Numbered from the stretch's first letter, positions 34,230 through 59,896 are shown. The stretch: DNA of 64,000 nt from Psammoneis japonica (GCA_008632985.1 QPGO01000149.1:1-64000), one strand, 5' to 3'. The notes: generated by a model not told the origin, from the sequence alone. Numbers and translations: made by a program.

Positions 34230-34449
34230 ACATTGTCTTGAGAATAATGTAGCTGGCTTTCCAGAAAGATGCTTGCCATTGTCGAAATGCACAAAAAATC
34301 TGAATAAGTTGAGGCGCCACCTTTTGGCTTGTTCGGGTCGTCGGAAGCCCTCGAGATTTTCCTGTGCACAGAACTGTCATTTCGCGTGGTTATGGGCAAG
34401 AAGGGGCTGCGTGTGATTTAATTTTGAGGTGCTGGTTTACCTTCCATTT

Positions 34450-35900: not shown

Positions 35901-36100
35901 CACCACACTGTATGTCCTCTGAAGTTACACACAAATTTTGGGTTGTAGGTTATGACAGACATTTCCTCCATTCCTTGTGCGAACATGACAGCCTACACTC
36001 TACAGGAAATATTCCAAACAAGGCGAGAACAAAACAATTGTGTTTCTCTCGTGTAGCTAAATTAAAAGCAATGTCAAGAAACGGTAATACCTGCTTCCAA

Positions 36101-36981: not shown

Positions 36982-37322
36982 TGCTTTGCGGTATTTTTTG
37001 ACGGAGTTATTTCTGCGGACTGATGTTATTTTTATATTCGTGTATGTACACTTCACTGCGGATTCCGGCTCGCCAAGCCAGCGTCTGCACATCAACCTTT
37101 TTAAGGAATTCGGAATCCACGTAATGTCTCATTCAAAAAGATTTTGCGTTCGCGTGCGGATCTTTGTCCGCATCCAAATTCAACTCGTACGCAATCCTAT
37201 TGGTTACACGTAGAATCCTACGCACGCGTCAGTGTTCCTCAAAACTGACGGTTGGTGCACGTTCCCAACGACGTGAACACGGTGTTGAATCTTGACCAAC
37301 GGCAAAACTAATTGGTGTGACC

Positions 37323-38021
37323 ATGAAGCTCAACCTTGTGCTCCCGCTCTTTTTGGTCGCTTCGGCGTCGGCCTTTGCGCCATCCTCACAAGCATTTGTC
37401 CGGCAATCTGCTCTGCGCATGTCAGATGAACCTCCGACGGAGGCTCCTCCGGCTCCTGCACCAGCAGCACCACCCAAGTCGGAGACAGCCATTGTCCCCG
37501 TCAAGGAAGAGACTGTCGAGTTTACCGCTGGGATTTTGGGTGGTGTTGCCGGCTTTGCTCTTGGTGGACCCGTCTTGGGTGCAATTGGAGCTGCCGCTGC
37601 TAACTACGTCTCCAAGAATGAGGGCGAAGTCTCCGAAGTCGTCTCTACCGTCTCCAAGACCTCGATCGAGCTTTACAATTACCTTGCCAAACTCGATAAC
37701 AAGTACGAGCTACTCACCAAGGCAAAAGGTTCGCTTGAAGATGCTATTGATAAGCTCAAGTCGAAAGGAAATGTTGATCCCGAATCTATTGAAAAGGTAG
37801 AGAAAGCTCTGGCTACTACCAAATCCAAGATTACAGAAATCAATGACGAGTATGATTTGGTTGGTGCCGGTGTTACCGCCCTGGGGGTCGTTGGTGACCT
37901 TGTCGAGAAGGCCGTTGTGAAGGCTGGTGAACTCAACGAAGAATACAAGCTCACCGATAAGGCAAAGGATGCCTTGAAGACTGCTGTTGAGAAAGCAAAG
38001 GATGCCAAGGCGAGCATGTAA
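37323..38021 (+). CDS. Plastid-targeted helical protein of unknown function
   Basis: Signal peptide ending ASASAF|AP (the ASAFAP motif), a transit peptide, a Gly-zipper hydrophobic segment and amphipathic helices. Confidence 0.85.
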   Translation: MKLNLVLPLFLVASASAFAPSSQAFVRQSALRMSDEPPTEAPPAPAPAAPPKSETAIVPVKEETVEFTAGILGGVAGFALGGPVLGAIGAAAANYVSKNEGEVSEVVSTVSKTSIELYNYLAKLDNKYELLTKAKGSLEDAIDKLKSKGNVDPESIEKVEKALATTKSKITEINDEYDLVGAGVTALGVVGDLVEKAVVKAGELNEEYKLTDKAKDALKTAVEKAKDAKASM

Positions 38022-38599: not shown

Positions 38600-39847
38600 A
38601 TGCGTTGCATTCTTTCAACCTCTCGCCGAAGAGTACACTTACAGGCTTATATAGTTGCTCTTGTTAGTTTCAGAAGTGCTACTGGTCTCGCAGCAACTGG
38701 CTTTGAACCCAACAACATCAACAACAACATCATGCCGGAAGAAACCGCTCCCACAACCATGATTGCTGCTCAGGGCAAAGACTATGGCGATATTGATGAA
38801 ATGATTTCCGTCAACAGCGGGGTTCGCATTCCCTCTCTCCAAGACTTGCCGGAGAAAAAGCGCAAAGACTGGTTGCTAATCAAGACACTGGCAGTAGCCT
38901 TGGCCCCCGGTGACTGCCGCGTCTTGTCTGGAAAGACAAGTCCAATCCAAGGTCCACCGTCCTTTCCCTATGTTCCGGGTGGCGATTGTTGTGGTATTGT
39001 ACAACAAGTCCCAGAGGGTCATGAATACTTCAAAGTTGGTGACCGAGTTGCTGCACGATTTAATATTGAAGGACCGAGAGGTGCCCTCGGTCAGTATGCA
39101 CTAGTTCATCAAGGCGTTTGTGACAAGGTGCCAGAGGCGATTTCTAATGACGAAGCGGCAGCACTTGTTGGAGCCTCTCCAGCCATGCTCCTGGCAAATC
39201 GAATCAAGGAGGGAGAACGAGTTCTAGTGTTGGGTGCTGGAGGAGGTGTAGGTAGCCATGTGTGTCAACTTATGCGTACCACACAGAATGCATCCCACAT
39301 TGTCGGTGTTTCCAAAGACCCAGAGCGCCTTCTACGTGACCCAATCAAGTGTGACAAGGCGATTGACTACACTCAAGAGGATCCATGGAACATGAAGGAA
39401 TACAAGGACAAGCCTTTTGATGTAGTGATTGACTTGGTGGGTGGTTCCTGGCTCCGAATCATTAAAGAGTCCAAAGAAAAGGGACCCATGATTGTCAAGA
39501 CTGCATCACAAGGAGGTCGGTTTCTTACCTTGGCACCAGATAATCCTCTTTTTGAGTGCCATTCCATGTGGCAAGCAGCAAAGATATTCATGTTTACGTC
39601 ACTATGGAGAGCCATCAAGTCGAGGACGTTCTGGAGAAGAAGCCTACCCAAGTACACTTTTGCAATGAGCCTGGATGATGGAAGGGACGTTGCAACGAAG
39701 ACCTTGAAGCTTGCAGCGGATGGAAAGCTAAAGGCCTGCATCGATAAAGTGTTTGCCTTGACTACGGAAGGTGTTCGTGCAGCATTTCGCAAACAAGAGT
39801 CTCGTCATACCCGTGGCAAAGTTGTGGTACACATTGCAGATGAGTAG
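38600..39847 (+). CDS. MDR-superfamily NAD(P)H quinone oxidoreductase (RTN4IP1/ceQORH-like)
   Basis: FPYVPGGDCCGIV, FKVGDRV, VLVLGAGGGVG, IDYT, FDVVIDLVG and HTRGKVVV. The start could alternatively be the ATG of MPEETAP. Confidence 0.85.
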   Translation: MRCILSTSRRRVHLQAYIVALVSFRSATGLAATGFEPNNINNNIMPEETAPTTMIAAQGKDYGDIDEMISVNSGVRIPSLQDLPEKKRKDWLLIKTLAVALAPGDCRVLSGKTSPIQGPPSFPYVPGGDCCGIVQQVPEGHEYFKVGDRVAARFNIEGPRGALGQYALVHQGVCDKVPEAISNDEAAALVGASPAMLLANRIKEGERVLVLGAGGGVGSHVCQLMRTTQNASHIVGVSKDPERLLRDPIKCDKAIDYTQEDPWNMKEYKDKPFDVVIDLVGGSWLRIIKESKEKGPMIVKTASQGGRFLTLAPDNPLFECHSMWQAAKIFMFTSLWRAIKSRTFWRRSLPKYTFAMSLDDGRDVATKTLKLAADGKLKACIDKVFALTTEGVRAAFRKQESRHTRGKVVVHIADE

Positions 39848-39908
39848 AGTTATTGCGCGTTCGGGCCAGCCACACAGTCGTTTAATGAAACATAATTTAC
39901 ATAGCGAT

Positions 39909-41842
39909 TCATTGAAATGAATCGACAATCTCTTCGTCGACTACGCTTTCTTCCGTCTCGGTCTTGAAAGCGACCGGGACTTCTTCTGTTACCTTGGATG
40001 CTTTGATCATTTCCCAGGCTTCATTTTTCGCCGCCACGTCGCCAACATTCGCCGTGTACTCTTCGTACTCGTACCCAAACGGTTCTCCCAGGAGAGGAGT
40101 GACGGACTGCGGTAGCGTTCCTTTGCCAGTGACACTGTAGCTTACAATATTCAAAAACATATCAAACGCCACTGGAAACGGAATTCTCACAATGAAATTG
40201 AGTCCAAACCACATTCGCGCATACCACGTTTCGTGTTTGTCATTGTTGGGAAGACCGGGCCATCCCGCCAAGAATCCACCCCACAATTCCAATGGCAGTC
40301 GAAAGAATCCATCAAAGAATCCACGCAGTCCCTCGACATTTTGTTTCATGAGAAATTCTCCTCCAAACACGGCAAAGTTACGCTGACGGATATTGTCGGG
40401 AGACCAAATGGCGTGGTATGCGTTTGCTGCCGCGCGGTCCAAGTTGGGTTCCGACTTTTGCAATTCGGATTGAATGGCCTTGGCCATGTCGGTGGCACCC
40501 ATCATGACGCGACACAAGTGATAACCCGTGCTGGGATGAACCATGGCGGCGGCTCCACCCAAACCCACGACACGCTGGTTCTTGAGTGGGAGTGGACCGC
40601 CCATGGGAATGTAACAAAATCTAGAACAAGAGAGACACGAGTGAGAATACGAAACGGCATTGAAACATCACATCGATGCAAAGAAAGGAACCAAGCAAAA
40701 ACTCACTCTTCCTCTTCAATATCTGTAACTTTAATACCCAAATGTTCCAAACGACGAAAGCATCGGTCCTTGCATTCTTGAAAACTAATCGCTGGACGCG
40801 CCACGAGGGAGGTTTCTTCGAAAAAAATCGTATTGTCCTTGAGTGGCATGGCATACATAAAGGTGGGAGCCGCCGTAGCTTTTTGCAACCACGTTTCGTC
40901 GGAATCAAAATGATCCGTTCGATAGTCAAACAATGTCATGGCTTCCTTGTCGTAGGGACCAATGCGATCCGCCGACAAGGACGATGATTCATCGACATTG
41001 ACCAAGGCACCGTAGGCAATCTGAAAACCAGGAGGATCATTGGGATAGGATTTGGTGTCCTTGAGGACAAGACCCGTTTCGTGGCCGGTGCAGTCCACCA
41101 CGAGCTTGGCACGAACCATCGTGGGTGTTCCATCCTTGGCCTCGAGTCGAATGGTGGTTCCCTCTTCGTCGTGTACCAGCGACCCGGCGGGAGAATACAC
41201 GTTTGTGCTTGTGGCGGTGGAAATGTGATTGGATTCCAATACACGGTACGAGGTCGAGAGCGATTCTCTCAATGCATACTTGTCGACACGACAATAGGGA
41301 CGATCGAGACGTTTTCGTTCTTGTACTGGAATATCAAAAGATCCACCAAAGAAACAATCTGTAACTTGCCATTCTCGATCAATGCATTGTCCGTTCTTGC
41401 CATTCTCCAACTCGACTCCCTGTTGCTTGTACGCTTGTACAATGGCATCCCATTCATCTCTCCAAACACCATAATTGGGAGCCCATTCCCGATCATAATT
41501 GGCATCCGCCAATAAAACATTGAGTTGATTATTGGAATCCAACAAGGATGCAATCGCTCGTGCTGCAGGACCACTCCCGAGAACGAGTACATCACAAACC
41601 TCATCATAATTTTCATTGGATGATGAAGCAAACAATGTTGTGGCGGAGGCATGGCGTTTTTGCTGTAAATGATTCAAACCAAAAGTATTCTTCTGTGATA
41701 ACGAATCTCCTGGCCTAGCATGATGATGTGTCACTCGACTGGATGAGGTTGTAATCGTCCTGGAAGAACGATGTAAGCCAGGCGAGACCAGAGCCGAAAC
41801 CGATCCTGCCGCCAACAGCAAGAACGTCCAAGACGACTTCAT
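39909..41842 (-). CDS. LCYB: Lycopene beta-cyclase, plastid-targeted
   Basis: DVLVLGSGPA, PNYGVWRDE, FQIAYG, LFDYR, PTFMYAMP, FFEETSLVARP and AAMVHPSTGY. The intron at 40621-40706 gives EEEE-FCYIPMGGPLP. Confidence 0.93.
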
Positions 41843-41926
41843 TTTTTCGCGTATTTTGAAAAATAAAGTTCAATGGAAGCGATGAGACTCGTTATCTAGT
41901 GTCAAGGAACATTCAGGAACGCCGTT

Positions 41927-42128
41927 TGACGTGTGTAACGTGACACTCAGGAGGATAGAGGAGCAAAAAGCAGTCGATGTTTTCGATTGCGATTTGTCTT
42001 CAACCAAAAAAAATGAGGGCGAGAAACACCAACGTCATAGAATCGGTAATGAGCCATGTTCGAAAGCGTCATAATGAGAAAGTCATGACGCAGACATTGG
42101 ACACGTAAGTGGGACAAGATGACGTCAT
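41927..42128. promoter_or_regulatory. Cluster of TGACGT (bZIP/aureochrome-type) motifs in a divergent promoter
   Basis: TGACGT at 41927, ACGTCA at 42032 and palindromic ATGACGTCAT at 42119, all between LCYB and the giant repeat gene. Confidence 0.4.
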
Positions 42129-42305
42129 AAACGTTATTTATTTAACGCAATGCGAAGCCAACGCACGTCGTTGATTTGATCGTTTGTTCGTTGCCTTTTT
42201 GTTTTCCCCGCCCAACAAGCTGCCGCAACGTTCCGCTTGACAGCAGAGCGAAAGCAAAAAGATCAAGGTGGTGTCAACCATCATCAATGAATAAATAGCA
42301 ACACC

Positions 42306-45300
42306 ATGGGTCGATGGTCGTATGCACTCCCCACCTTCTTGGCTCTAGCCTCATCACAATCCTCAGAGGCCTTTGTTCCGACGGGATGGTCTAGAAAAAT
42401 TCGTTTCCAAAGCAGCGCTCAAGATCATGCTGCCATGATGCACGCCTCACCTGAAGAATTTTATGATCAAGACGAACATTTGCATTTTATACCACCCGAT
42501 CGACAAGAACCAGAGCCATTTCCTGAACCAGATTATCGTATGGAAGAGTATGGAGTTGGGACGGATGAGATGCACGCCATGCCCACGTCCGATACATTAA
42601 TGCCCGACTATGTCGAGGGAAATCGCGCAGCGGAACAACGTCGAGGTCGTCAAATCGCTGAGGAATACCATGAAACACGTTCACGATCCAATTCTCGTTC
42701 TTCTTTAGCACCCGATTATCCGGATCGAGCTCCTCCGATTCCTTACAATGAACGGGGTCGGACACCATCACCTCGATCACGTTCCTCTTCTCCGGCGTCA
42801 CTGACACCGGATTATCCCGATTATCAGAGATTGGGTGGTACAGGCAATTCCGTCATGCCATCGTCGTCATCACGTCATTCCATGCCTGCATCTCTATCCA
42901 TTTCTCCCGATTATGTCGATCGTCAAATGGGTGCACCCGTCAATGAAGTTACCGTGGCACGTGATGTTTTGTTGGAAGCGGGTTTTGAACCACACGAAAT
43001 TTCATCTATATTGGATTTGTTTACACACAAAATGACAACCAATGCCGCATTTTGTCGCAAGAGTTTTGAAGAACGTGTGGCGGCAGCTGCGGCGGGTGCA
43101 CTTTGTTCCGATATTCGTAGTAGTCCTCGTGAGGGTGCCAAGGCCATGATGGATGCCATGTATCGACAACAAGAGCAAGAAGAAGCTAGTACTCCGAGTC
43201 TGTCGCCGCCGAGGAGTAGTCGAAATTCAATGGATCGATCGAGGAATGATTATTCTACTGCTCGTGGCATGGATAATAATGGCTACTCAGATCAATCGGA
43301 TACCTTTAGTAGAGACAGAAGCAGATCACGAGAAAGACCCATCATGAATGACTATTCCGACAGTGAACGAGACGGATTTCACGAACGAGAACGAATGATG
43401 CGCACCAACCAAAGAGAGGGATACTCTTATCGGTCGGATGGTTATCGCGACGAACGGAGTAGTAGATCACGAGATGGTCGTTCCATGGATGAATTGCAAG
43501 ACTATTCCGACCGTTCGTTTGGTGGAGAACGGGGCAGATCACGCGAACGAAGCATGCCCCAGGAGAGGGCTAGATCAACGTCTCGTTCCCAATCACGCGG
43601 CAGAGCGCCCGACGATGATATGGAACACTTTCGAGATCGAACCTTTGGCAGTGACGACAAGACTAGACGACAACAACAACAAGACAAGCCTCGATCCAGA
43701 CCAAAAGATTTGTCGGAATCGTTTGACGATGATACCGAGAGCTTTCGAGATCGTATCTATGACAAATCCAGACAATCGTCGCGCATGATTTCGAGACAAA
43801 ACAGTGGATCAGATGATTCTTCTCTTGGAAACCGTAATAACAAGCTGTCCGATGATGGTCCATCGTCTTTTGGTAGAGACGACAGACCGCCTTCTCGTAG
43901 GCATCAGAAATCGTTGGACCAGTCCATTTCCGAGGAAGGTACGGAACGATTTCGAGAACAGCCGTCTGCGTTTAGTAACAGCTCCTCCTCCAGACCGTCG
44001 TCTCGTGCGAGAGACCGCTCTGGTTCCTTTGGTGACAATTCTCAGCGTGACCAGAGATCGATTCCTTTGGCAACAAGCCTGCCGCTTTTGGCGGCGGCAG
44101 CGGCGATAAACCAGGGGCTTCGCAGTCGCGTTCACAATTTGGAAACAAGGCTCCTGGCGGTCGACCGGGTTCGCCATCGAATGGGCTTGCCGACAAACTT
44201 GAAAGATTTGGAAAGAGTTCGTCGGACGACCCAGCAATTGACAATGCCATGGCAAAAGGAAGGAGCCTAAGCAACAAGGCAAACAATCTCGCAAATAGAA
44301 ATGCTCTTGGTGGAATGAACAAACGACCCATGGGCAGTGGAATTCAAAAGCAGCCGGGTTCTACAGGTATTGGCAACAATGCTTTCAAATCTTCTTCGTC
44401 GCCTCCGGGCATGGCAAAGAAGCCGAACGCGTTTGGTTCATCACCAGGAGCAACCAAGCCGGGTATGGGGACGTCGAAACCTTCTCCGTTTGGACAGAAG
44501 AAAAATCCGGATGGTCCAATGAGTACAATGAATAAGAGACCTACTTCTCCAATGGGTGGACTACAAAAGCCTGGTTCTGCACCTGGAACAGGCATAGGAG
44601 CCTCCAAGCCGGGCATCGGTGCGGCGAAACCATCCCCGTTTGGTCAGAAGAAAAGCCCAGATAGTCCAATGGGTACAATTAATAAGAGACCTACTTCCCC
44701 AATGGGTGGACTTCAAAAGCCGGGCTCTGCGACCGGAACAGGCATGGGAGCAACCAAGCCGGGCATCGGTGCGGGGAAACCATCCCCGTTTGGTCAGAAG
44801 AAACCCACAGATAGTCCAATGAGTACAATGAACAAGCGGCCTACTTCTCCAATGGGTGGACTTCAAAAGCCGGGCTCTACGACGGCAACAGGAATGGGAG
44901 CAACCAAACCGGGCATCGGTGCGGCGAAACCATCTCCGTTTGGTCAGAAGAAAGCCACAGGTAGTCCAATGAGTACAATGAACAAACGGCCTACTTCTCC
45001 AATGGGTGGACTTCAAAAGCCTGGCTCTGCGACTGCGACAGGCATGGGAGCCTCCAAATCTGGTATCGGAGCGTCGAAACCATCCCCATTTGTCCAAAAG
45101 CCAAGCACAGATGGTCCAATGAGTACAATGAACAAGCGGCCTTCTTCTCCAATGGGTGGGCTTCAAAAGCCTGGCTCTTCGACTGCAACAGGAATGGGAG
45201 CCTCTAAACCTGGTATCGGAGCTTCGAAGCCGTCACCGTTTGGCAAAAAGCCAGGCACAGATAGTCCAATGAGTACAATGAACAAGGGGCCTACTTCTCC

Positions 45301-48300
45301 AATGGGTGGACTTCAAAAGCCTGGATCTACGACAGGAACAGGCATGGGAGCCTCCAAACCTGGTATCGGAGCGTCGAAACCGTCCCCGTTTGGCAAAAAG
45401 CCAGGCACAGATAGTCCAATGAGTACCATGAACAAACGGCCTACTTCTCCAATGGGTGGACTTCAAAAGCCTGGCTCTGCGACTGCAACAGGCATGGGAG
45501 CCTCCAAGCCTGGTATCGGAGCGTCGAAACCATCCCCGTTTGGCCAGAAGACAAGCACAGACGGTCCAATGAGTACAATGGACAAGCGGCCTACTTCTCC
45601 AATGGGTGGACTTCAAAAGCCAGGTTCTGCGACTGCAACAGGCATGGGAGCCTCCAAGCCTGGTATCGGAGCGTCGAAATCGTCCCCGTTTGGCCAGAAG
45701 AAAAGCACAGATAGTCCGATGAGTACAATGAATAAGAGACCTACATCTCCCATGGGTGGACTTCAGAAGCCTGGCTCTACAACTGCAACAGGCATGGGAG
45801 CCTCTAAACCTGGTATCGGAGCGTCGAAACCATCCCCGTTCGGCGGCGGTGGCTCTACTAGTGCTACTGCACCATCGCGTCCGTCTTCCCCGTTTGGTGG
45901 TGGCACGACGAGCACTGCACCATCAAAACCGTCGTCTCCCTTCGGTGCAGGTAGCTCGGCGTCTGGACTTGGCGGTGGTGGTTTCGGTCCCGGTGCGTCG
46001 TCTACAACTTCAGACCCGGCGAAGAAGGCGATGGACATGGCAAAGAACAAGGCAAGCACGTTCAATCCTTCTCCAGGACTAGGAGACACCAAACCGGGTG
46101 TCGGATTGTCCTCGTCCTCCACCTCATCTTCCCCGTTCGACGGTGGTGGCTCTACTAGTGCATCACGCCCGTCTTCTCCCTTTGGCGGTGGCGCGGCGAG
46201 CACGTCCTCATCTTCCCCATTTGGTGGTGGCACGACGAGCACTGCACCATCAAAACCGTCGTCTCCCTTTGGTGCAGGTAGCTCTGCGTCTGGACTTGGC
46301 GGTGGTGGTTTCAGTCCCGGTGCGTCGTCTACAACTTCAGACCCGGCGAAGAAAGCTATGGATATGGCAAAGAGCAAGGCAAGCACGTTCAATCCTTCTC
46401 CAGGACTAGGAGACACCAAACCGGGTGTCGGATTGTCCTCGTCCTCCGCCTCTTCTTCCCCGTTCGGCGGTGGTGGCTCTACTAGTGCATCACGCCCGTC
46501 TTCTCCCTTTGGCGGTGGCGCGGCGAGCACGTCCTCATCTTCCCCGTTTGGTGGTGGCGCGGCGAGCAGTACACCATCAAAACCGTCGTCTCCTTTTGGT
46601 GCAGGTAGCTCGGCGTCTGGACTTGGCGGTGGTGGTTTTAGTCCCGGTGCGTCGTCTACAACTACAGATCCGGCGAAGAAAGCTATGGATATGGCAAAGA
46701 GCAAGGCAAGCACGTTCAATCCTTCTCCAGGACTAGGAGACACCAAATCGGGTGTCGGATTATCCACGTCCTCCACATCGTCTTCCCCGTTCGGCGGTGG
46801 TGGCTCTACTAGTGCTACTGCACCATCACGTCCGTCGTCTCCCTTTGGCGGTGGCGCGGCGAGCACGTCCTCGTCTTCTCCGTTTGGTGGTGGCACGACG
46901 AGTACCGCACCATCAAAACCGTCGTCTCCCTTTGGTGCAAGTAGCTCGGCGTCTGGACTTGGCGGTGGTGGTTTCAGTCCCGGTGCGTCGTCAACAACTA
47001 CAGATCCGGCGAAGAAAGCTATGGATAGGGCAAAGAGCAAGGCAAGCACGTTCAATCCTTCTCCAGGACTAGGAGACACCAAATCGGGTGTCGGATTATC
47101 CACGTCCTCCACATCGTCTTCCCCGTTCGGCGGTGGTTGCTCTACTAGTGCTACTGCACCATCACGTCCGTCGTCTCCCTTTGGCGGTGGCGCGGCGACC
47201 TCGTCCTCGTCTTCCCCGTTTGGTGGTGCCGCGACGAGCACTACACCATCAAAACCGTCGTCTCCCTTTGGTGCAAGTAGCTCGGCGTCTGGACTCGGCG
47301 GTGGTGGTTTCAGTCCCGGTGCGTCGTCTACAACTACAGATCCGGCGAAGAAAGCTATGGATATGGCAAAGAGCAAGGCAAGCACGTTCAATCCTTCTCC
47401 AGGACTAGGAGACACCAAACCGGGTGTCGGATTATCCACGTCCTCCACCTCGTCTTCCCCGTTCGTCGGTGGTGGCTCTACTAGTGCTACTGCACCATCA
47501 CGTCCGTCGTCTCCCTTTGGCGGTGGCGCGGCGACCTCGTCCTCGTCTTCCCCGTTTGGTGGTGGCACGACGAGCTCTACACCATCAAAACCGTCGTCTC
47601 CCTTTGGTGGGGGTAGCTCGGCATCTGGACTTGGCGGTGGTGGTTTTAGTCCTGGAGTGTCGTCTACAACAGACCCGGCAAAGAAAGCTATGGATATGGC
47701 AAAGGGCAAAGCAGCCTCGTTTAATCCATCGCCAGGTCTAGGAGACACGAAACCGGGCGCCGGACTTTCATCGTCCTCGTCTTTTGTCGGTGGTGGTGGG
47801 TCTACTAGCACTACTTCACCGTCGCGTCCGTCTTCTCCCTTCGGTGCTGGCACGGCGAACACGTCACCACCTTCTCCGTTTGGAGGTGGGGGCACGACGA
47901 GCTCTACACCAACAAGTTCGTCATCTCCTCTTGGTGGTGGTGGCGCTACAAGCACTGCTTCGCCATCTGGCCCGTCGTCTTTATTTAGCAGTGGTGGCTT
48001 CAGTCCTGGTGGTTCATCTTCTTCTACTGCCGACCCAGCAAAGAAAGCTATGGACGTGGCAAAAAACAAAGCAAGCACGTTCAATCCTTCCCCAGGACTG
48101 GGAGACACGAAACCGGGTGCCGGACTCTCATCGTCCTCGTCTTCTCCGTTCGGCAGCGGTGGCACGTCCGGCACTGCGCCATCAAATCCATCATCTCCCT
48201 TCGGTGGTGGTACGAGCCAGACGTCGGGATTAGGCGGCGGTGGCCCGTCCTCTGGTTTTGGTGGTGGCGGCTTCGGTCCTGGTGCTTCCTCATCTACTAG

Positions 48301-51300
48301 TGCTGACCCAGCAAAGAAAGCTATGGAAATGGCAAAAACCAAAGCAGGCACATTCAATCCTTCTCCAGGACTTGGAGATACGAAGCCGAGCACGGGACTT
48401 GCACCTGCCTCGTCATCTCCGTTTGGAAGTGGAGGTACGACGAACACTGCAACATCAAGTTCGTCTTCGCCGTTTGGAGGTGGCGCCTCGCCGAGTACCA
48501 CTTCAACAAGTTCGTCAACTGGTTTTGGCGGCAGTGGCCAGTCTTCTGGATTTGGCGGTGGTGGTTTCAGTCCGGGTACTTCAAATACATCTGCAGACCC
48601 TGCAAAGAAAGCTATGGATATGGCAAAGAGCAAAGCAGCCTCGTTTAATCCGTCGCCAGGTCTAGGAGATACGAAGCCGGGCGCAGGACTTTCATCTTCC
48701 TCATCTTCCCCTTTCGGCAGTGGTGCCGCGACGAGTGCTACTGCATCAAGTTCATCAGCTGGCTTTGGTGGTGGTGGGACAACGAGCACGCCCTCGTCGC
48801 CCCCGTTTGGCGGTGGTGGATCTTCGAGCAGTACTGCGCCATCTGGCCCGTCATCTGGCTTTGGCGGTGGCAGCTTCAGTCCTGGTGCTTCCTCATCTAC
48901 TAGTGCTGACCCAGCAAAGAAAGCTATGGAAATGGCAAAAACCAAAGCAGGCACATTCAATCCTTCTCCAGGACTTGGAGATACGAAGCCGAGCACGGGA
49001 CTTGCACCTGCCTCGTCATCTCCGTTTGGAAGTGGAGGTACGACGAACACTGCAACATCAAGTTCGTCTTCGCCGTTTGGAGGTGGCGCCTCGCCGAGTA
49101 CCACTTCAACAAGTTCGTCAACTGGTTTTGGCGGCAGTGGCCCGTCTTCTGGATTTGGCGGTGGTGGTTTCAGTCCGGGTACTTCAAATACATCTGCAGA
49201 CCCTGCAAAGAAAGCTATGGATATGGCAAAGAGCAAAGCAGCCTCGTTTAATCCATCGCCAGGTCTAGGAGATACGAAGCCGGGCGCAGGACTTTCATCT
49301 TCCTCATCTTCCCCTTTCGGCAGTGGTGCCGCGACGAGTGCTACTGCATCAAGTTCATCAGCTGGCTTTGTTGGTGGTGGGACAACGAGCACGTCCCCGT
49401 CGCCCCCGTTTGGCGGTGGTGGATCTTCGAGCAGTACTGCGCCATCTGGCCCGTCATCTGGCTTTGGGGGTGGTGGCTTCAGTCCCGGTGCTTCCTCGTC
49501 TACTTCATTAAGTTCGTCCTCTGGCGTTGGTGGTGGAACAGCGAGCACATCCTCGTCGTCTCCGTTTGGCGGAAGTGGCACGTCGAGCACTGCGCCATCT
49601 GGCCCGTCATCTAGCTTTGGCGGTGGTGGCTTTAGTCCCGGTGTTTCCTCGTCTACTGCATCATCAAGTTCGTCAACTGGCGTTGGTGGCGGAACAACGA
49701 GCACATCCGCGTCGTCTCCGTTTGGCGGAAGTGGCACGTCGAGCACTGCGCCATCTGGACCGTCATCTGGCTTTGGCGGTGGAGGTTTTAGTCCTGGTGC
49801 TTCCTCGTCTACTGCATCAAGTTCGTCCACTGGCGTTGGTGGTGGAACAGCGAGCACATCCTCGTCGTCCCCGTTTGGCGGAAGTGGCACGTCGAGCACT
49901 GCGCCAACTGGCCCGTCATCTGGCTTTGGCGGTGGAGGCTTCAGTCCCGGTGCTTCCTCGTCTACTGCATCAAGTTCGTCAACTGGCGGGGCGACGAGCA
50001 CATTCGGTGGTGGTGGTGGTACGACGAGCTCTTCAACATCAAGCCCGTCTTCGCCGTTTGGAGGCGGTGCCACACCGAGTACCACTTCATCAAGTTCGTC
50101 AACTGGTTTTGGCGGTAGTGGCCCGTCCTCTGGATTTGGCGGTGGTGGTTTCGGCACCGGTGCTTCGTCGACATCTGCAGACCCTGCAAAGAAAGCCATG
50201 GATGTGGCAAAGAGCAAAGCAGCCTCATTTAATCCATCCCCAGGTCTAGGAGACACGAAACCGGGCGCCGGACTTTCGTCCTCGTCTTCCCCGTTTGGCG
50301 GTGGTGGTACGTCGAGCACTGCTGGTGGCTTCGGTCCCGGTGCTTCCTCGACTACTGCATCAAGTTCCTCAACTGACGTTGGTGGCGGAACTGCGAGCAC
50401 GTCCGCGTCGTCTCCGTTTGGCGGTAGTGGCACGTCGAACACTGCTCCATCTGGCCCGTCATCTGGCTTCGGCGGTGGTGGCTTCAGTCCCGGTGGTCAC
50501 TCGTCTGCTGCATCAAGTTCGTCAACTGGCATTGGTAGTGGGACAACGAGCGCGTTTGGTGGTGGTGGCTCGACGAGCGCTGCAACATCAAGTACGTCTT
50601 CACCGTTTGGTGCACCGGGTGCCACTTCACCATCAAGTTCGTCAACTGGCTTTGGTGGCAGTGGCCCGTCCTCTGGCTTTGGTGGTGGTGGTTTCAGTCC
50701 CGGTGCTTCGTCGACATCTGGAGACCCTGCAAAGAAAGCTATGGATATGGCAAAGAGCAAGGCAACCTCGTTTAATCCATCCCCAGGTCTAGGAGACACG
50801 AAGCCGGGCGCCGGACTTTCCTCCTCCTCGTCTTCTCCGTTCGGCGGTGGTGGCCCTACTAGGACTACTGCACCATCAAGTCCGTCAACTGGCTTTGGGG
50901 TTGGGGGTGTTAATCCGGGTGCTTCTTCCGCAAGTACAAGTCAGGCAGGATCTTTTGGAGGCGTACCTCCTATCGGAGGAATGAACTCAAAGTCAGGTCC
51001 GGTGAATTCAGGACTCGACCGTCGTGATCCCGGTACTATGTCAAACCAATCTGTTTCACCATCTCGTGATTCGACGATGGGGGCAGCTGGTGGAGCGACG
51101 AAAAAGGGCAATAATTTGCTGGGGCGATTTAGCCGAAAAAAGAACAAGGACAAAGCGAAGTCAGGTCAAGCAGATTTCAGCACTTATGGGGCCGACGAAA
51201 CGCCGAAGTCATTTCAACCTGCGAACGGTTTCCAGGGATCACGGATGGTTGATAAGGTTCCAGATCAAATTGATTCGTTCGGTGATAGAAGAAGTCAATC

Positions 51301-51664
51301 GTCATACGCTGGTTCAGGATCTTTTAGAAGTGAGACCAACTCTTCAAGAAAGGTTCGTGAACGGGTTTCTGTAGCGTTTGCTTCATTGAAATCAAAATGG
51401 ATCAAAGATGATCAAGGGTTTTATGCCGATGCAGTTGCCGACTGGGATGACCACAGCAGAATGTCCTACGAGACGAACAATAATGAATGGGACAACAATA
51501 GCAGAAGCTCATACGAGGAGACGAATGTTGACTGGAACGAGCCTAGCAGAACCTCAGATCAGAAGAAAAACTTTGGAGATCGTATTGCCGGAGGGTGGGC
51601 GTCTTTGAAATCCAAGATACTCAAAAAAGACAACCCATTGGATTTTGATGAAATAAGACGATGA
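42306..51664 (+). CDS. Giant (~3,100 aa) low-complexity repeat protein with a plastid-type presequence; one frameshift at ~44050-44062
   Basis: ORF 42306 begins with a signal peptide plus SEAF|VP. The frame of ORF 44249 is open back to ~44050 and there encodes DSFGNKP..DDPAIDNAMAK, which resembles the later repeat, so the two ORFs are probably one gene. Confidence 0.75.
44521..45840 (+). repeat. Coding tandem repeat, 9 x 150 bp (50 aa)
   Basis: STMNKRPTSPMGGLQKPGS units start every 150 bp from 44521 to 45721. Confidence 0.95.
46010..50810 (+). repeat. Coding repeat: 13 copies of DPAKKAMDMAKSKAxxFNPSPGLGDTKP in G/S/P/F spacers
   Basis: Counted in the translation. Includes a 603-bp higher-order duplication (tgctgaccca at 48301 and 48904). 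Confidence 0.92.
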
Positions 51665-52562: not shown

Positions 52563-53678
52563 TCAAGAGCCCATGATAAATCCGTTCTCCGTAAATTCCA
52601 TTCTCTTTACTTGCTTCAGCAGCGCTGCTTTCCAGTCTGGCTCCTTCCCGCCGTGATACACCATTGCAAGCCCCAAACGAAGTCTGCAGTCTGGAAAGAT
52701 GTCTTTTGCCTTGGTTGCAAAGTCCCTCCGCGACAATCCCTGGTTCTCCTGGTAAAACTCGGTTACCTCGCGAACCACCTTGTTGGCAAATGAAGCCACC
52801 TGGTGCTGTAACTCACGCATTTGCTTCAATAATCCTGGCTGGTCTGCCAGGAGCTCAATCGCATCGTCTGCCTTGTCCTTGATCACAAGCTCAGCAAACG
52901 CTTTCGGAGAGACGACAAATGTTTTGACGCGGTGACGATGCAAGTACCAAGTGCACTTTTCCTTCCACCAGTTGCCGTATTCATCAACGACAACATAACC
53001 TTCCATGTCAGTTTCATTGTGTAAGGTGTTTAACTTGCAAAGCGGCTTGTGCTTAACAATGCATGATGCTGGAACCCGCTCTCTGAGCTGGTCATGCGAC
53101 AAGTATTTACCAGTGATGCGTGACCGAGCATTGAGAACAATCAAGCGAGGGTGATCATAATGCACAACGATTCGAAAAGTTGGGTCGGGAGACACCAACT
53201 CCATGTTTACGGTGAGATGCTCGTGCTCCAACCGTTCAATAGACCTCTTCAACTCCAAGTCTCGTTCGAGCAGTTCCTCTGCATAGAGAGCATGGTCGGA
53301 TTTTAATGATGTCTTGGATTTCAAGTGGAGTTCGCCACCGCCAGTCATGTAGGACGAGATTAACGAACCGTCAACCTTGTCCATAACAAACAATGGATGG
53401 CCGTAGTTGATAAAATCGACCTCACCCTTGTTGAAAAACTTTTTCATAGGACGAGACACGAGTGCATCAACGAGTTCAGGGTTGTCTTCTTTCATACGAA
53501 ACATGATGCCACGTGCCTCAAGCGCAGATGGCCTCAACCAAGTCTCTGGGTCAGCAAAGTGATATGAAAAGATGCGATATCGCTCACCATGTCGCTCTTG
53601 GTCCTTATGAAAGAATGGAGCGTCGCGGTCACTTGAGAGCGCCTTGAGCTCTTCATACAATTCTACTGCGTTTGTCAT
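52563..53678 (-). CDS. T4 Rnl1 (RnlA)-like ATP-dependent RNA ligase
   Basis: 371 aa, intronless, ATG 53678. ELYEEL, YRIFSY, ALEARGIMF, SRPMKKFFN, motif I KVDGSLIS, NMELVSP..RIVVHY, LNARSRITGKY, motif IV EGYVV and motif V KEKCTWY, in the same order and at similar length to T4 Rnl1. Confidence 0.9.
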   Translation of the reverse strand: MTNAVELYEELKALSSDRDAPFFHKDQERHGERYRIFSYHFADPETWLRPSALEARGIMFRMKEDNPELVDALVSRPMKKFFNKGEVDFINYGHPLFVMDKVDGSLISSYMTGGGELHLKSKTSLKSDHALYAEELLERDLELKRSIERLEHEHLTVNMELVSPDPTFRIVVHYDHPRLIVLNARSRITGKYLSHDQLRERVPASCIVKHKPLCKLNTLHNETDMEGYVVVDEYGNWWKEKCTWYLHRHRVKTFVVSPKAFAELVIKDKADDAIELLADQPGLLKQMRELQHQVASFANKVVREVTEFYQENQGLSRRDFATKAKDIFPDCRLRLGLAMVYHGGKEPDWKAALLKQVKRMEFTENGFIMGS

Positions 53679-53874
53679 TCTAAAAATACAGAGTCTTTGG
53701 AGATGCGGGAAAGTTAGGATTACGCCATCAACAGACCTGGCATTTGCCACTCAACTCGATTTATCCTTGTGTTGGAGGAGAGATGACTGCTTTTTGCAAT
53801 TATTCGGCTCACGCTCGTCACCACTATGAGTCCCGCATCCCGCACATTTGAGACGTGTTTCGATCTTGGGTGAC

Positions 53875-54076
53875 TGTGATTTGATTGTAGCTATTCTGCT
53901 GTTGTAACAATCAAAGGGCTAAGAAAATTGTGTGTTAAAATAGAATGTGAACTTTTAAAGTGCGTAGTTGGTCTCTTGTCGGAAGTAAGTGCGTCAGTAA
54001 AGAATCTAGCTCTTGAATCAAGTTCAAGGACTAGGACAGTTCGCCTGTCTGTCCGTTTGACCCTAGATTCATCACA
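53875..54076 (-). repeat. 3' LTR
   Basis: TGTGAT...ATCACA; 193/202 identical to 59695..59896. Confidence 0.95.
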
Positions 54077-54085
54077 CTCCCTCTC
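54077..54085 (-). other. Polypurine tract
   Basis: GAGAGGGAG on the minus strand abuts the 3' LTR. Confidence 0.85.
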
Positions 54086-54109
54086 AAGAGCCAATGCAGC
54101 GTTGTTTCC

Positions 54110-57100
54110 TTACCAACCAAGTATGAACTTTCGATGCCGAACGAGCAACTCTAGTGACAAAGGCTTGGTCAAGCAATCTGCAGGCTGAGCCTCGGTGTCA
54201 ATTTTCACTATCTCAATCTGTCCGCTCTGGACATGTGACCGGAAGTGGTGCAACTTGACATTGAGATGCTTTGTACGAGGTCGGTACTTGTGGACTCGCG
54301 CCATCTCTAGCGCACCGCTGTTGTCCTCGAACACTCTGCAATGGATCTTGGGTTCCGCTCGATCGATCGGAAAACCCTCTGCTTTCAATTCTTTCAGCAT
54401 CTCCATCAAAGGGATCGCCTCTCGCAGGGCACAGCTCAGTCCCGTGTGTTCGCTCTCAGTTGAAGAGAGACACATTTCTCCCTGTAATTGGGATTTCCAC
54501 GTGACCGGACATCCACCGTACATAATGACATATCCATGTCTGGACCTTGCAGTGTCTGGATTCGAAGTGTCACTCTTGTCGAAGTTCCCCGCAAAATCCG
54601 CATCCACATAAACCTCGAGTTCCTTGGACTTGGTTGGCCGCATCATAATTCCTTTGTCCCTCGTTCCCATGAGATGCCTGCCCAACCACCTGATTGCCTT
54701 ACCGTGCTCGACTTTTGGAGCTGCTGTGAACCTCGCGCACTGGTGAATCATGCATGAACAGTCACTTCGGGTGCCACGCTCCAAGCAATTCAATTTTCCA
54801 ACCATGCTCCGGTGGTCGAAGCTGTTGTCAAAGTCTTCTGAGTCTTGGTGTCGACCCAAAATCATGGATGATGCAGCTGGAGTGTCTTTCGTCTTGGTGT
54901 TCTTCTGGAAGTTCAGTTGCTCCAGAATTTGATCGACAAGGTGAGGTTGCATCAGATGTGTCATCCCGTCCGCTTTCCTGTCGATGTTCATCCCAAGAAA
55001 ATCTTGAATGTCGCCTTCCTCCGTTGTGTTTAGGTCTGCGCTTTGTGTGTCTTTCACGACTTGATCAAGCTCCTTTTCATCTGGACCAGCAAGCAAAGAA
55101 TCATCCGTGTGGAGGACGCATGTGCACTTTCCTCAGAAGAAGACGCACTCATCACATTTCGACTGCTTGAAGCCGAGCTTGTTGACAAGTTTGTCCACGA
55201 GACAGTCGTTCCACACTCGGCCAGCTTGTTTCTGACCATGTGCATTTCGATGGAGTTCGAGCACATGGTCCTCCGAGTTGCCATCTTCTACCTCGAATCC
55301 CTTGGGAATTTTCATGTGGATCTCTCGCTTGACTGGGGCCTGCGGAAACGCTGGCACGCAATCGAGTTGCTTGGTGTGCCAATTGTTCATGGCCGAGAGA
55401 ATTGGCAGCATTCGGATCGAGCTCCACGAGGCTGCAGGTGCGTGTGTCCTGTCCGGATTGTAGTGAATTGACTTTTTCATCCTTGACCCTTCGATGTTGA
55501 GCCTCGCCTTGTACTTTTTGACTTTTCTCATCTTGACATCGCGTTTCCGCTTCATTTGCCACACTGCAGGTGATGCTGTGGCATCCTTGGGGATCTCGGA
55601 AATGTGTCTCACCGAGAAGTTTCGGTTCCCGATCTGATCTTGGAATTCTTTTTCCATCGCCTTGACGAACTCCTTCGCATCTTTTTCCTTCATCGCTTCA
55701 TGGTGGTGCATGGCATCTGGGTCCGCCGTCGACTTGCAGGCATGCAAGGGATCTTCTTCGGATGATTCTTGTTGAGGACAGAGAGATTCGAATCCGAAGA
55801 TCTCTCCCTCTGTCTCTCCAATGCATTCTTCAGCTCTCGCCAGCGACTCGGCGGCATGTCTTGGGTTCGGTCTACTGACACGTCCCGATCTGGTCGTCAC
55901 CAGAGGTGCGTTGCGTTGCGCTGCGTCTTGTTGTTGTGCTGGAGCTTCCACGTTAGCAGCGCGCTGTGGGTCTGCCTCCTGAGCACTGGTTGGGAGGTTG
56001 CTGTCCTCCCTCTGAGTTGGCGATTCGTTCTCGCCTTGTGCTCCATTCAAGCTCGACCCATCAGGCTCTTGGTCTGTTGGTCGGCTGTCGTTGGCACTCA
56101 ACCACATGGGTTGTTCCCTAGAGGATTTTCGTTTTCTCCTCTTCTTGTGGCTCTTCTTGTTCGTGAGCCTCACGCTGTTTTCGCGTTTTCTGTTGTTGGG
56201 GGTCTCGGATGCTCCGTCAGCCTGGCCATCGGCTGGTGGATCTTCAAAGCCTGCTTTGGCCTTCCATCCGATCTTCCAGCGCTCTTGTTGAGCTGTGTGA
56301 AAACTCGGGTCGAATCTCACATGGAATTGTGGGCTTGCTCGTCCTGTTTCGATGTCGAGGACAAGCGCTGCGTTTCAGCAGTGCACTGGCGATTGGCCAA
56401 GGTAAATTCCCACGTTGGACCTTTGCTTCCACTTGTTGAAAATGTTTCCCGTCTGAAGTGCTTCTTCTAGCACCGCCACAGGACACCCAAAAGGGTGACA
56501 GTGTTTTGAGTTTACATCCACTGCGGATGAAGTGAACAGCTGGCATGCGCTTCGGCTCGCTGGATCTTTCAGCAGCGGCGTCTCGTTCAGCGCTTGATTT
56601 GCCATTCGCAATGCGTGCGGCCAGAGGTGAGGCGAGATGGCTTGTGGCCACCTCTTGTTCGCGTGAATCAATTGCGTTCTCGCCAGGTCTTGCAGATCTC
56701 GTATTTTCTTCTCTGCAGTTCCATTTTGATGATGCACATTCACTCCGGCAAAGGCAAGTCCCTGCCTTTGTTCTCGAACTGCGTTCACCCATGCCTTCAC
56801 CTTGAAAATGCCGTTGTCGGCATGACAGTGTCGGATTTTGATTCCACTTTCTTCTGCATGCTGCTCAAATGCTCTCTTCCCTCTCAACGTCTCTTCAGCA
56901 GAGCTCGTTTGCTGGAGGCACACGCACCCGTAGCCTGCAGCTTGGTCAACGTACACAGTCGCACAATTGCAGTGGTTTTTGGCAAGTGTCCCCGTGTTCT
57001 GTGCTGCCAGTCCAGGTGTGCTCGAGACCAGCATGTCGACTGACACGACTTGTCCCGGTCTCATAGGTGCAATTTTGTTCCTGCTCTTTTCGGTCCTTGG

Positions 57101-58387
57101 TCTCCATGGGCGCTTTGTTTGCTTCCCACAAAGGCATGCCGAGCAGACTGGGGCTGGGCACTTGGCCAGCGTGGGATCGATGAGCCTCATTTTCGCCATC
57201 TGTTGCAGGCACTTGAATGACATGTGACTGAATTTGTGATGCAGCTTCAGCAGTTTGGTGGTTTTTGTTTCTTCACCTCCATCTTGTCTGTCTTCCTCGT
57301 CTGGAACAACTGCCGCCGGACTGTCTTCATCCTTCTCCCCTTGCAGATCAAATTCGGTCTGCCGTGGGGCGGCCCAGTCGATGGGTTGGGCCGCGGTGTC
57401 CAATGAGTGTAGACCCACTTTTTGAAGGTGGGATTCTGAGAGCGTTTCGTCGTCAGCCTCGTCATCGCTAACAAGGTGAGCTTCAGAATCGTGTGCGATC
57501 ACAGGATCGTCCTCGTCGTTCGCTGAAATTTTTGCCTCTTGACAGAAAGCATCGTGTTTGGAGCAGCCGGGAGCCAGGGCGAACGTGGCGACGTTTGATT
57601 TCGTTTTGTCGATCGGCATGGTTAGCTTGTGCGAATGTTGGTTCCAACACAAAACCGTTGCACAATGGTTGGTGGTCTCCCCTGTCCCGCCAACTGCGTC
57701 TTTTTGAGATTGCGCCCAGTGTTGTGGACTGAGCAGTCGCGCATCCTCGTCCGTGGGCACGCAGAACGAGTTGGGGATGCGAAACTTGTGTCGTTTTCCA
57801 GTGTCGTCTAACCAGTTCCATACGATTGTGCCAATCATAACTCCTTTCGTTCGTGTTCCTCCGAAACCCTTGATGCAGCGATTCGATTGTCGCAATGGGC
57901 CTTCGAAATCTTCGATGAACGAAGAAATGCATCCGGAACAGCGATTGTCAACGCCGACCGGGCCTCCATCAGTGTTGAAAACGACGTCATTCGTGCGTGC
58001 TGGGCAGGTCTGAGCTTTGAATGCCAAAGCCGTGCATGCGGTCCATACATTGCGAATGCCTCGTGCCAAGTTCCATCGAGTGTACTTACGGCGTCGACAC
58101 TTCACAATTGCTCCCTCTAGGGAGCAAATCCGTGCTCGCATGGCTTGTGCCTCTTTCCCGTTCGGGCCACTCTCCCCCGTCCACACAGGATTAACGAGTT
58201 TTCGGCGCTGTCGGGATCGATCTCGGCGTTCATGACGACTCTTGTTCCTAGATTTTCGTCGGTTCATCGGATTGGGCCGGATTGGTGAAAGGCAGGCTAG
58301 AATGTACAGCAATGGCGACCAGATCGTCTCATGGGACTCATGGGCTGCTCCTGTCAATCGCCTCCTCCACGTGGGTGACGTTGACAG
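54110..58387 (-). pseudogene. pol: Copia pol (protease, integrase, RT, RNase H) with in-frame TGA stops at 56375-77 and 55133-35
   Basis: VGVDNRCS (PR); HHKFSH..CSAC, VSVDML, HADNG, HHQNGTAE (IN); KARLN, GQKQAGRVW, HTDD (RT); YVDADFAG, FEDNSGA, QPADCLTKPL (RH). All three ORFs are in one frame. Confidence 0.92.
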
Positions 58388-59665: not shown

Positions 59666-59671
59666 GGCACA

Positions 59672-59694
59672 ATCAGCTTAGCGCAGAGGAAGCG
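59672..59694 (-). other. Putative primer-binding site complementary to the 5' end of initiator tRNA-Met
   Basis: The + strand reads ATCAGCTTAGCGCAGAGGAAGCG, which looks like tRNA-iMet nt 1-23 (acceptor 5' strand plus D arm), and abuts the 5' LTR. Confidence 0.6.
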
Positions 59695-59896
59695 TGTGAT
59701 TTGATTGTAGCCATTCTGCTGTTGCAACAATCAAAGGGCTAAGAAAATTGTGTGCCAAAATAGAATGTGAACTTTTAAAGTGCGCAGTTGGTCTCTTGTC
59801 GGAAGTGAGTGCGTCAGCAAAGAATCTAGCTCTTGAATCAAGTTCAAGGACTGGGACAGTTCGCCTGTCTGTCCGTTTGACCCCAGATTCATCACA
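59695..59896 (-). repeat. 5' LTR
   Basis: TGTGAT...ATCACA, followed by GGTGAC. Confidence 0.95.

What the first reader, a model, noticed from the sequence alone, without database searches (positions are those of the whole stretch)
42306..51664. ~3,100-aa plastid-targeted sticker-and-spacer protein: candidate pyrenoid or plastid condensate scaffold
Seen: signal peptide plus SEAF|VP, an R/D/S-rich block, nine 50-aa basic repeats, then 13 conserved DPAKKAMDMAKSKAxxFNPSPGLGDTKP motifs separated by G/S/P spacers full of SPFGGG and GFSPG. The C-terminus has two [F/W]ASLKSK helices. Known: the Rubisco linkers EPYC1 and diatom PYCO1 are disordered repeat proteins with short helical or aromatic stickers. 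Inference: a very large multivalent scaffold for Rubisco, the pyrenoid shell or thylakoids.
Basis: partly seen in the sequence, partly recalled or inferred. Interest (0 to 1): 0.7.

Follow-up and report, generated by a model that had tools for sequence, protein, structure and literature searches.

The report
Giant diatom plastid repeat-scaffold protein family
A diatom gene encodes one roughly 3,100-residue, floppy, chloroplast-addressed repeat protein, the largest found of about ten sister genes that mix and match a few short motifs; it is a testable but unproven candidate organiser of the CO2-fixing pyrenoid.

Summary
The two ORFs are one gene: contigs of both laid runs carry one extra base at 44058/44059, giving about 3,119 residues. 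Signal peptide with F at +1, nine 50-residue basic repeats, 13 DPAK...FNPSPGLGDTK motifs and two [F/W]ASLKSK elements are all present. The motif has far fewer amino-acid changes than the spacers.

New: the gene belongs to a family of about ten genes in this genome. All have a plastid-type leader; eight share an undescribed 42-residue helical module, and they reuse other short motifs. No outside homologue was found, but the module was not searched exhaustively.

The protein fits the outline of a Rubisco linker (disorder, basic charge, 10 of 12 spacings within 20-120 residues). It and one paralogue end in a helix resembling PYCO1's RbcL-binding AxEW[AG]SM motif. PYCO1's main stickers are absent, and nothing shows Rubisco binding or pyrenoid location.

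Best reading: a plastid-stroma multivalent scaffold, probably of the pyrenoid (about 40%). Rivals: other plastid scaffold, stress protectant, secreted protein. Not a PYCO1 or EPYC1 family member. Interest 0.58.

The parts
42306..51664 (+). Single coding sequence, about 3,119-3,120 aa, about 300 kDa, pI about 10; no intron needed once one missing base is allowed for
42306..42371 (+). Signal peptide (aa 1-22), ending in SEA; the same MGRWS-type leader is in the paralogues
   Evidence: read from sequence; SignalP not run
42372..42431 (+). Transit-peptide-like stretch starting with F at +1 (3 K/R, 1 D/E in 20 aa)
   Evidence: criteria from PMC4329603 passages
42702..42911 (+). Three SLxPD motifs, a family motif (15 in paralogue B, 7 in D, 5 in F1, 3 in F2, 1 in E)
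42984..43109 (+). 42-aa helical family module, consensus DDEVxAALxxFMxKMAxNxEFQxLSxEERIAxAAAAV; this copy is the most diverged
   Evidence: leave-one-out profile 26.6 bits on the allelic copy, next hits 6.6 and 6.0; helices in the single-sequence model
43203..44057 (+). R/D/S-rich mixed-charge disordered block
44058..44059 (+). Assembly error: one base missing; contigs of both runs carry it
   Evidence: tables 4 and 8
44477..45826 (+). Nine tandem 50-aa basic repeats (KPSPFG ... KRPTSPMGGLQKPG), pI 11.2, net charge +51
45827..51040 (+). 1,738-aa S/G/T/P region with 65 FG dipeptides (39 SPFG, median spacing 17 aa); spacers almost uncharged (22 of 1,374 residues), no Y or W
46013..50806 (+). 13 copies of the 28-aa DPAKKAMDMAKSKAxxFNPSPGLGDTKP motif; spacings 91-120 aa (10 of 12), then 327 and 181; paralogue E has two diverged copies
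51362..51397 (+). C-terminal helix 1 (VSVAFASLKSK)
51581..51616 (+). C-terminal helix 2 (IAGGWASLKSK), resembling the PYCO1 RbcL-binding motifs ASEWASMNT and AAEWGSMNQ

Best explanation
A nucleus-encoded, expressed diatom protein imported into the plastid stroma, where it acts as a long, disordered, multivalent scaffold, most likely in or around the pyrenoid. Shown: one reading frame, plastid-type leader, low-complexity composition, a constrained 13-fold motif, and membership of a family of about ten genes with a shared 42-aa module. Inferred: (1) import and cleavage after SEA; (2) the Phe-rich uncharged spacers give weak self-cohesion, as aromatic stickers do in PYCO1; (3) the 13 short basic helices about 100 aa apart bind a repeated partner surface, Rubisco being the lead candidate; (4) the two C-terminal helices dock in the RbcL cleft that PYCO1's W motif uses; (5) the shared module links family members to each other or to one common anchor, so the family works as a set of pyrenoid organisers.
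For: Single ORF. Run X2 skips an 86-nt intron of the neighbouring lycopene cyclase, has no cover in one intergenic bin and covers this gene's 5' part, so it behaves like cDNA (my inference, the run is labelled 'DNA?'). [A/T]|F[V/A/L]P cleavage motif with a net-positive next 20 aa in 8 of 8 leaders scored; leaders H and I read A|FT and A|FQ. Meets the three published linker criteria in outline: disorder, repeated helix, 20-120 aa spacing in 10 of 12 intervals. pI 10.0 vs 10.03 for PYCO1. Pattern [LIVFM][AS]xxW[AGS]S[MLI] lies 26 aa from this protein's end and 51 aa from paralogue C's end; 0 hits in 32,586 aa of 69 background ORFs; 0.002 expected in the last 150 aa of nine genes. No cluster of KWSPxGG or GTG[YF]NP in the genome. 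Species-specific linker candidates of this size have precedent: PPAP28, 2,209 aa.
Against: No PYCO1 sticker (KWSPR, GTGYNP) and no W or Y in the 1,738-aa repeat region, whereas PYCO1 needs its W for Rubisco binding. The RbcL-like pattern was drawn after seeing the sequence; helix 1 has F and paralogue E has L in place of W, and 6 of 9 genes scanned have no such motif. PYCO1's own RbcL motif binds only weakly. No other plastid-looking protein carried the pattern in 51 distinct matches examined. Published FLIPPer criteria gave 13 candidates in Chlorella, of which 1 came down with Rubisco, so the outline has low predictive value. Several paralogues are net acidic (B -59, D -36, G -114), unlike known linkers. 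Neighbouring genes include no recognised pyrenoid gene.
Confidence: 0.4

Rival explanations
1. Plastid scaffold with a partner other than Rubisco: it organises thylakoids or the girdle lamella, or compacts the plastid nucleoid through the nine basic SP-rich repeats, with the shared module as the anchor.
For: Same targeting evidence. Basic block of pI 11.2 with 25 SP/TP dipeptides recalls DNA-binding SPxK tails (recalled, no call). Paralogues F2 and H end in basic amphipathic helices, hydrophobic moment 0.71 and 0.78 vs background 90th percentile 0.67, n = 57. The family-wide element is the module, not the RbcL-like motif.
Against: This protein's own C-terminus is not unusually amphipathic (0.49; 53% of background as high). 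No transmembrane or HMG/DNA-binding Pfam family was hit.
Confidence: 0.3
2. LEA/dehydrin-like stress protectant of the plastid: the repeated Lys/Ala/Met helix binds membranes or proteins on drying, salt or freezing, and the Gly/Ser spacers act as a shield.
For: AKKAMDMAKSKA (and AKEKA in paralogue E) resembles dehydrin K-segments and LEA3 11-mers; poly-Ser runs and Gly-rich spacers are dehydrin-like (resemblance recalled, no call).
Against: No dehydrin or LEA family at E up to 10 on the repeat region. Repeat-region GRAVY is only -0.39 and the motif's hydrophobic moment is 0.33. It does not explain the invariant FNPSPGLGDTK tail or the family module.
Confidence: 0.12
3. Not plastid: a secreted or periplastid mucin-like protein (cell coat, adhesive or silica-associated) whose Ser/Thr-rich spacers are glycosylated.
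For: A signal peptide is the first step for both routes; the region is 38% Ser+Thr. The rule 'F/W/Y/L at +1' alone has specificity 0.82 (PMC4329603). SignalP and ASAFind were not run.
Against: F at +1 is kept in all ten diverged leaders and the next 20 aa are net positive in 8 of 8 scored. Only three Cys in the mature chain and no adhesion domain.
Confidence: 0.12
4. A fast-evolving, largely dispensable family inflated by repeat slippage, with no specific binding role for the giant form.
For: No homologue found outside. Four paralogues (B, C, F1, G) have frame breaks in the assembly that were not checked against reads.
Against: 7.6 kb open frame; motif held constant while spacers drift; alleles differ at 16 synonymous vs 11 non-synonymous codons of 355; the one break tested was an assembly error.
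Confidence: 0.06

Closest known systems
PYCO1 (Phatr3_J49957), Rubisco linker of Phaeodactylum tricornutum (PMC10288592)
   Same: Plastid-type leader, G/S/P/A-rich disordered repeats, pI about 10, aromatic residues spaced through the spacers, and two C-terminal helices with a similar W-x-S-[M/L] core.
   Different: Five times longer (3,119 vs 592 aa); no KWSPR or GTGYNP; F instead of W/Y in the repeats; 13 helical 28-aa motifs; extra R/D/S block, basic 50-aa repeats and family module; no alignable homology detected.
EPYC1 (Chlamydomonas) and CsLinker (Chlorella sorokiniana)
   Same: Short helical motifs repeated within 20-120 aa in a disordered basic chain.
   Different: Green-lineage form IB Rubisco; the [D/N]W[R/K]xx[L/I/V/A] motif cannot occur in the repeat region, which has no W; 13 motifs against 5 or 6.
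PPAP28 of the chlorarachniophyte Amorphochlora amoebiformis (PMC10927497)
   Same: Very large (2,209 aa), mostly disordered, species-specific repeat protein; it sits in the pyrenoid matrix and co-precipitates with Rubisco.
   Different: 90 copies of a 5-aa [D/E]xPKS repeat rather than 13 long motifs; unrelated lineage; location and binding are shown for PPAP28, not here.
FG-repeat domains of nucleoporins (composition only; recalled)
   Same: 65 FG dipeptides, mostly SPFG, about 17 aa apart in uncharged S/G/T/P spacers.
   Different: Signal peptide and plastid-type leader; no nucleoporin family hit. One paper search on SPFG gave a single listing that I did not read.

Membership tests
PYCO1 | Repeated KWSP[R/Q] RbcS-binding sticker | tested here: not met
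   No W in the repeat region; no KWSPxGG cluster in the genome either
PYCO1 | Repeated GTGYNP self-association motif | tested here: not met
   No Y in the repeat region; only a loose FNP resemblance
PYCO1 | Two C-terminal RbcL-binding helices (ASEWASMNT, AAEWGSMNQ) | tested here: inconclusive
   IAGGWASLK matches the pattern, VSVAFASLK has F; pattern drawn after the fact; binding not testable because no full RbcL was held
PYCO1 | Sequence homology | tested here: inconclusive
   No hit with the last 354 aa against 1.84 billion representatives; no direct pairwise alignment to PYCO1 was run
Pyrenoid Rubisco linkers as a functional class (FLIPPer criteria, PMC11570498) | Largely disordered | tested here: met
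   G+S+P 49%; single-sequence models of 669 of 3,119 aa have mean pLDDT 50 and 47, weak evidence alone; no disorder predictor run
Pyrenoid Rubisco linkers as a functional class (FLIPPer criteria, PMC11570498) | Repeated structured elements spaced 20-120 aa | tested here: met
   10 of 12 intervals are 91-120 aa; the one motif copy modelled gave a 10-residue helix at low confidence
Pyrenoid Rubisco linkers as a functional class (FLIPPer criteria, PMC11570498) | Plastid targeting | tested here: met
   By inspection of ten leaders against published criteria; SignalP/ASAFind not run
Pyrenoid Rubisco linkers as a functional class (FLIPPer criteria, PMC11570498) | Pyrenoid location, Rubisco binding, phase separation | not testable with these tools
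   Needs experiments
EPYC1-type Rubisco-binding motif proteins | [D/N]W[R/K]xx[L/I/V/A] motif in the repeats | tested here: not met
   Motif; no W in aa 586-2912
Dehydrin / LEA proteins | K-segment or LEA profile match | tested here: not met
   No such Pfam family at E up to 10 or E up to 0.01

The most novel reading that the evidence does not exclude
This diatom builds its pyrenoid not with one linker but with a family of about ten lineage-specific disordered proteins that share a docking module and shuffle short stickers. The 3,100-residue member supplies an FG-repeat mesh, nucleoporin-like in composition, studded with 13 helical binding sites and capped by RbcL-binding helices that resemble PYCO1's. 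It would then both cross-link Rubisco and set which molecules enter the condensate, and the W-x-S-[ML] helix would be the first Rubisco-binding motif shared across pennate diatoms.
Probability: 0.15. Interest if true: 0.88.

Novelty: new variant of a known kind. Interest (0 to 1): 0.58.

Why it matters
In the papers I searched, PYCO1 is the only diatom Rubisco linker described, and it is not widely conserved. How other diatoms condense Rubisco is open. This locus gives concrete, short test peptides: the 28-aa repeat, the two C-terminal helices and a 42-aa module shared by eight paralogues. If the family is pyrenoidal it would show a modular, multi-gene way to build the organelle and a possible cross-species RbcL motif. 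If not, it is still an undescribed family of giant plastid-addressed disordered proteins whose role is unknown. Unchecked notes from this scan report similar proteins in other diatom genomes, so the class may be common rather than unique.

Tried and rejected
Intron as the link between the ORFs: GT..AG candidates exist, but both runs show a one-base insertion and no joint there.

Homologue searches, all blank: aa 1-330 against 1,025-2,925-aa proteins, 8,000 candidates; aa 190-320 against 321-1,022-aa proteins, 701 candidates; module profile against 428-2,000-aa proteins, 8,000 candidates; exhaustive phmmer with the last 354 aa; ESM Atlas twice; Pfam (only sub-cutoff hits); PDB by sequence; exact look-up, 0 of 5 proteins; earlier findings by sequence.

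Metagenome scan with the motif: 1 of 30 stretches passed, a 24-aa match at 50% in a frame with no other resemblance; treated as chance.

Fold search of the N-terminal model: best Z 4.7 among 48,161 chains, generic helices; the model is low-confidence.

Complex prediction of the 45-aa motif (2 copies) with a stand-in diatom-type RbcS (4 copies): no answer, score 0.00, not evidence either way. The RbcL cleft could not be modelled: no rbcL in G000 and the only diatom-type contig found lacks the 5' part.

C-terminal amphipathic helix as a family rule: not above background for A-E (the script stopped before its last table was complete).

Genome-wide hunt for other carriers of the W motif: 102 matches vs 44 control and 33 vs 8; 30 of 102 and 30 of 33 loci were pulled, 51 distinct rows read, 10 in frames of 150 aa or more, only paralogue C looked relevant. 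Short exons could hide others.

No RNA holder is listed on record.

Full report
Context. The window is bases 1-64,000 of contig C150 of G000, a 91.4-Mb assembly in 597 contigs. Neighbouring genes include a lycopene cyclase, a zinc-type oxidoreductase, a T4-type RNA ligase and a Copia element. Leaders of the ASAFAP type and this gene content point to a diatom nuclear genome (inference). The plastid genome is not in the assembly: no RbcL match.

1. The observation. Two overlapping + strand ORFs lie at 42306-44270 and 44051-51664. ORF2 holds 13 DPAKKAM, 13 FNPSPGLGDTK, 9 SPMGGLQKPG, 22 SPFGGG, 14 GFSPG and 2 ASLKSK. The nine basic repeats have an exact 50-aa period; the 13 motifs are 109, 109, 112, 112, 111, 120, 91, 97, 104, 97, 327 and 181 aa apart. 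Contigs of two public runs laid on 39500-44480 each carry one extra base at 44058/44059 and reach 33 letters past it. That joins the ORFs into one frame of 3,119 aa. The two runs are one sample. Run X2 skips the 86-nt intron of the lycopene cyclase and lacks cover in one intergenic bin, while X1 does neither, so X2 behaves like cDNA and the gene's 5' part appears transcribed (inference). An allele lies at the end of contig C3, 97% identical over 340 aa, with 16 synonymous and 11 non-synonymous changes in 355 codons. Among the 13 repeat units, the motif shows 0.27 synonymous and 0.10 non-synonymous differences per codon, the spacers 0.28 and 0.33 (pairs not independent). The motif is therefore kept at the protein level.

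2. What it is. The gene is not a singleton. Searches of the own genome and the fetched stretches gave ten genes: A (this one); B C150:71771; C C150:78949; D C150:145467 (972 aa); E C150:149243 (1,222 aa); F1 C59:355747; F2 C59:358934 (486 aa); G C106:87446 (about 2,700 aa); H C106:55557 (minus); I C106:about 30857 (minus). D and E also have allelic copies on C59. B, C, F1 and G have frame breaks that I did not test with reads. All ten begin with a similar leader and have F right after the likely cleavage site; in the eight scored, the next 20 residues are net positive, which fits the published description of diatom plastid presequences. SignalP and ASAFind were not run.

Eight genes (A-G, with F1 and F2) share a 42-aa helical module, three times in D (alignment A2). 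A profile built without A's copy scores A's allelic copy at 26.6 bits (E 1.6e-6) among 7,889 ORFs; the next hits score 6.6 (a degenerate second copy in G) and 6.0. H and I join the family through the leader and a coiled-coil exon shared with G. Other motifs are shuffled among members (nine genes scanned, I not included): SLxPD in A, B, D, E, F1, F2; the DPAK helix in A (13) and E (2); PxW motifs mainly in C (16) and D (3); SPF/PPF in A (52) and G (41); a C-terminal [W/F/L][A/S]S[L/I]K in A (2), C and E. In A the 1,738-aa central region has 65 FG dipeptides about 17 aa apart, 22 charged residues in 1,374 spacer residues, and no Y or W. Single-sequence models of two segments (315 and 354 aa) show helices at the module, at the repeat motif and at both ASLKSK elements amid low-confidence coil. 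No outside homologue, Pfam family above cutoff, solved relative or clear fold was found. The module itself never had an exhaustive search, so its range across diatoms is open.

3. How it most likely works. I read it as a stromal, multivalent disordered scaffold: weak Phe-based self-cohesion in the spacers, 13 helical binding sites about 100 aa apart, a basic block, two terminal docking helices, and a module that ties it to its paralogues or to a common anchor. All binding steps are inferred. The pyrenoid is the leading site (0.40) for four reasons. The layout meets the three published linker criteria in outline. The pI is 10.0, as for PYCO1. The genome shows no cluster of PYCO1's stickers: 3 KWSPxGG-pattern matches against 13 in the control, and 2 GTG[YF]NP matches against 4. 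And the terminal IAGGWASLK of A and FAEEWSSIK of C resemble the PYCO1 helices ASEWASMNT and AAEWGSMNQ that bind a hydrophobic cleft of RbcL; the pattern had 0 hits in 32,586 aa of background ORFs and an expectation of 0.002 in the last 150 aa of nine genes.

Against this: the pattern was drawn after the fact; A's first helix has F and E has L at the W position; six of nine genes lack it; PYCO1's RbcL motif is itself weak; the repeat has no W; several paralogues are acidic; and only 1 of 13 candidates picked by these criteria in Chlorella came down with Rubisco. Rivals are a non-Rubisco plastid scaffold for membranes or nucleoid (0.30), a LEA/dehydrin-like protectant (0.12; no Pfam support), a secreted or periplastid mucin-like protein (0.12), and a dispensable expanded family (0.06).

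4. Known systems. It works, in outline, like PYCO1, EPYC1, CsLinker and especially the 2,209-aa species-specific PPAP28. It is not a member of the PYCO1 or EPYC1 families: their defining repeated stickers were tested and are absent. The FG-rich composition recalls nucleoporin FG domains (recalled), but the leader argues against that family.

5. Novelty. I found no description of this family in paper searches on diatom pyrenoid linkers, PYCO1, disordered plastid proteins and diatom adhesives (listings only, open-access library only). Unchecked notes of this scan describe comparable giant plastid-addressed repeat proteins, and one cluster of motif-sharing paralogues, in other diatom genomes; none matched by sequence. 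They are leads, not support, and suggest the class recurs.

What I saw of each paper. PMC10288592: part 1 of 6 of the text, sections 10 and 12, search passages and supplement passages. PMC13655443, bioRxiv 2023.10.26.564148, PMC10927497, PMC11570498, bioRxiv 2023.10.25.564039, PMC4329603 and bioRxiv 2020.05.25.115089: passages only. The candidate-protein tables of the two diatom pyrenoid preprints were not seen and could hold relatives.

6. Verdict. A real, intact and apparently expressed gene; observation confirmed; interpretation plausible but unproven; the main gain is the paralogue family with a shared module and the PYCO1-like terminal helix. New variant of a known kind; interest 0.58.

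Noticed in passing
window 52563-53750 (-): ORF with both T4 Rnl1 RNA ligase domains (PF09511 E 1.7e-17, PF20819 E 6.5e-7), 0.9 kb downstream of the gene and beside the Copia element; possibly of viral origin.
   Followed up: no
window 54001-62000, also 1-2000, 26001-28000, 30001-32000, 34001-36000: Strong TA-dinucleotide depletion (observed/expected 0.05-0.23) with TG/CA excess, including the Copia element; genes beside these tracts are at about 0.4-0.7. Already noted by the scan for this window.
   Followed up: partly
window 39909-41869 (-): Lycopene cyclase gene, head-to-head with the finding's gene about 460 bp away; its 86-nt intron at 40621-40706 is skipped in run X2.
   Followed up: partly
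window 37296-38021 (+): Protein with an ASASA|FAP leader, a glycine-zipper-like hydrophobic stretch and a helical Lys/Glu-rich tail; no Pfam family above cutoff.
   Followed up: no
window 10731-14915, 21147-23593 and 24110-26044 (-): Three tandem paralogues with a shared N-terminal domain, long K/E/P/A-rich linkers and, in two, a DnaJ domain; the middle one is split across frames, perhaps another assembly indel.
   Followed up: no
G000 C150:81039-82946 (L058): Paralogue C carries 16 PxW[A/V/I] motifs such as MPQWAK and MPSWAR in a G/S-rich chain, a W-based sticker array and arguably a better Rubisco-linker candidate than gene A.
   Followed up: partly
G000 C106:87446-95596 (L084, L085), C106:53449-55557, C106:29507-30857: Paralogues G, H and I share a C-terminal coiled-coil exon after a conserved intron position; G has about 40 SPF/PPF repeats with SSGPGLSSDK units.
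   Followed up: partly
L114 1310-2568: A contig filed in a Bacteroidales MAG carries diatom-type plastid rbcL, rbcS, rpl33 and rps18 genes, apparently a contaminant (gene names read from the translations).
   Followed up: no
window 15419-18680 (+): Two overlapping ORFs (801 and 346 aa) without Pfam hits, with Cys/His clusters, transposase-like by eye.
   Followed up: no
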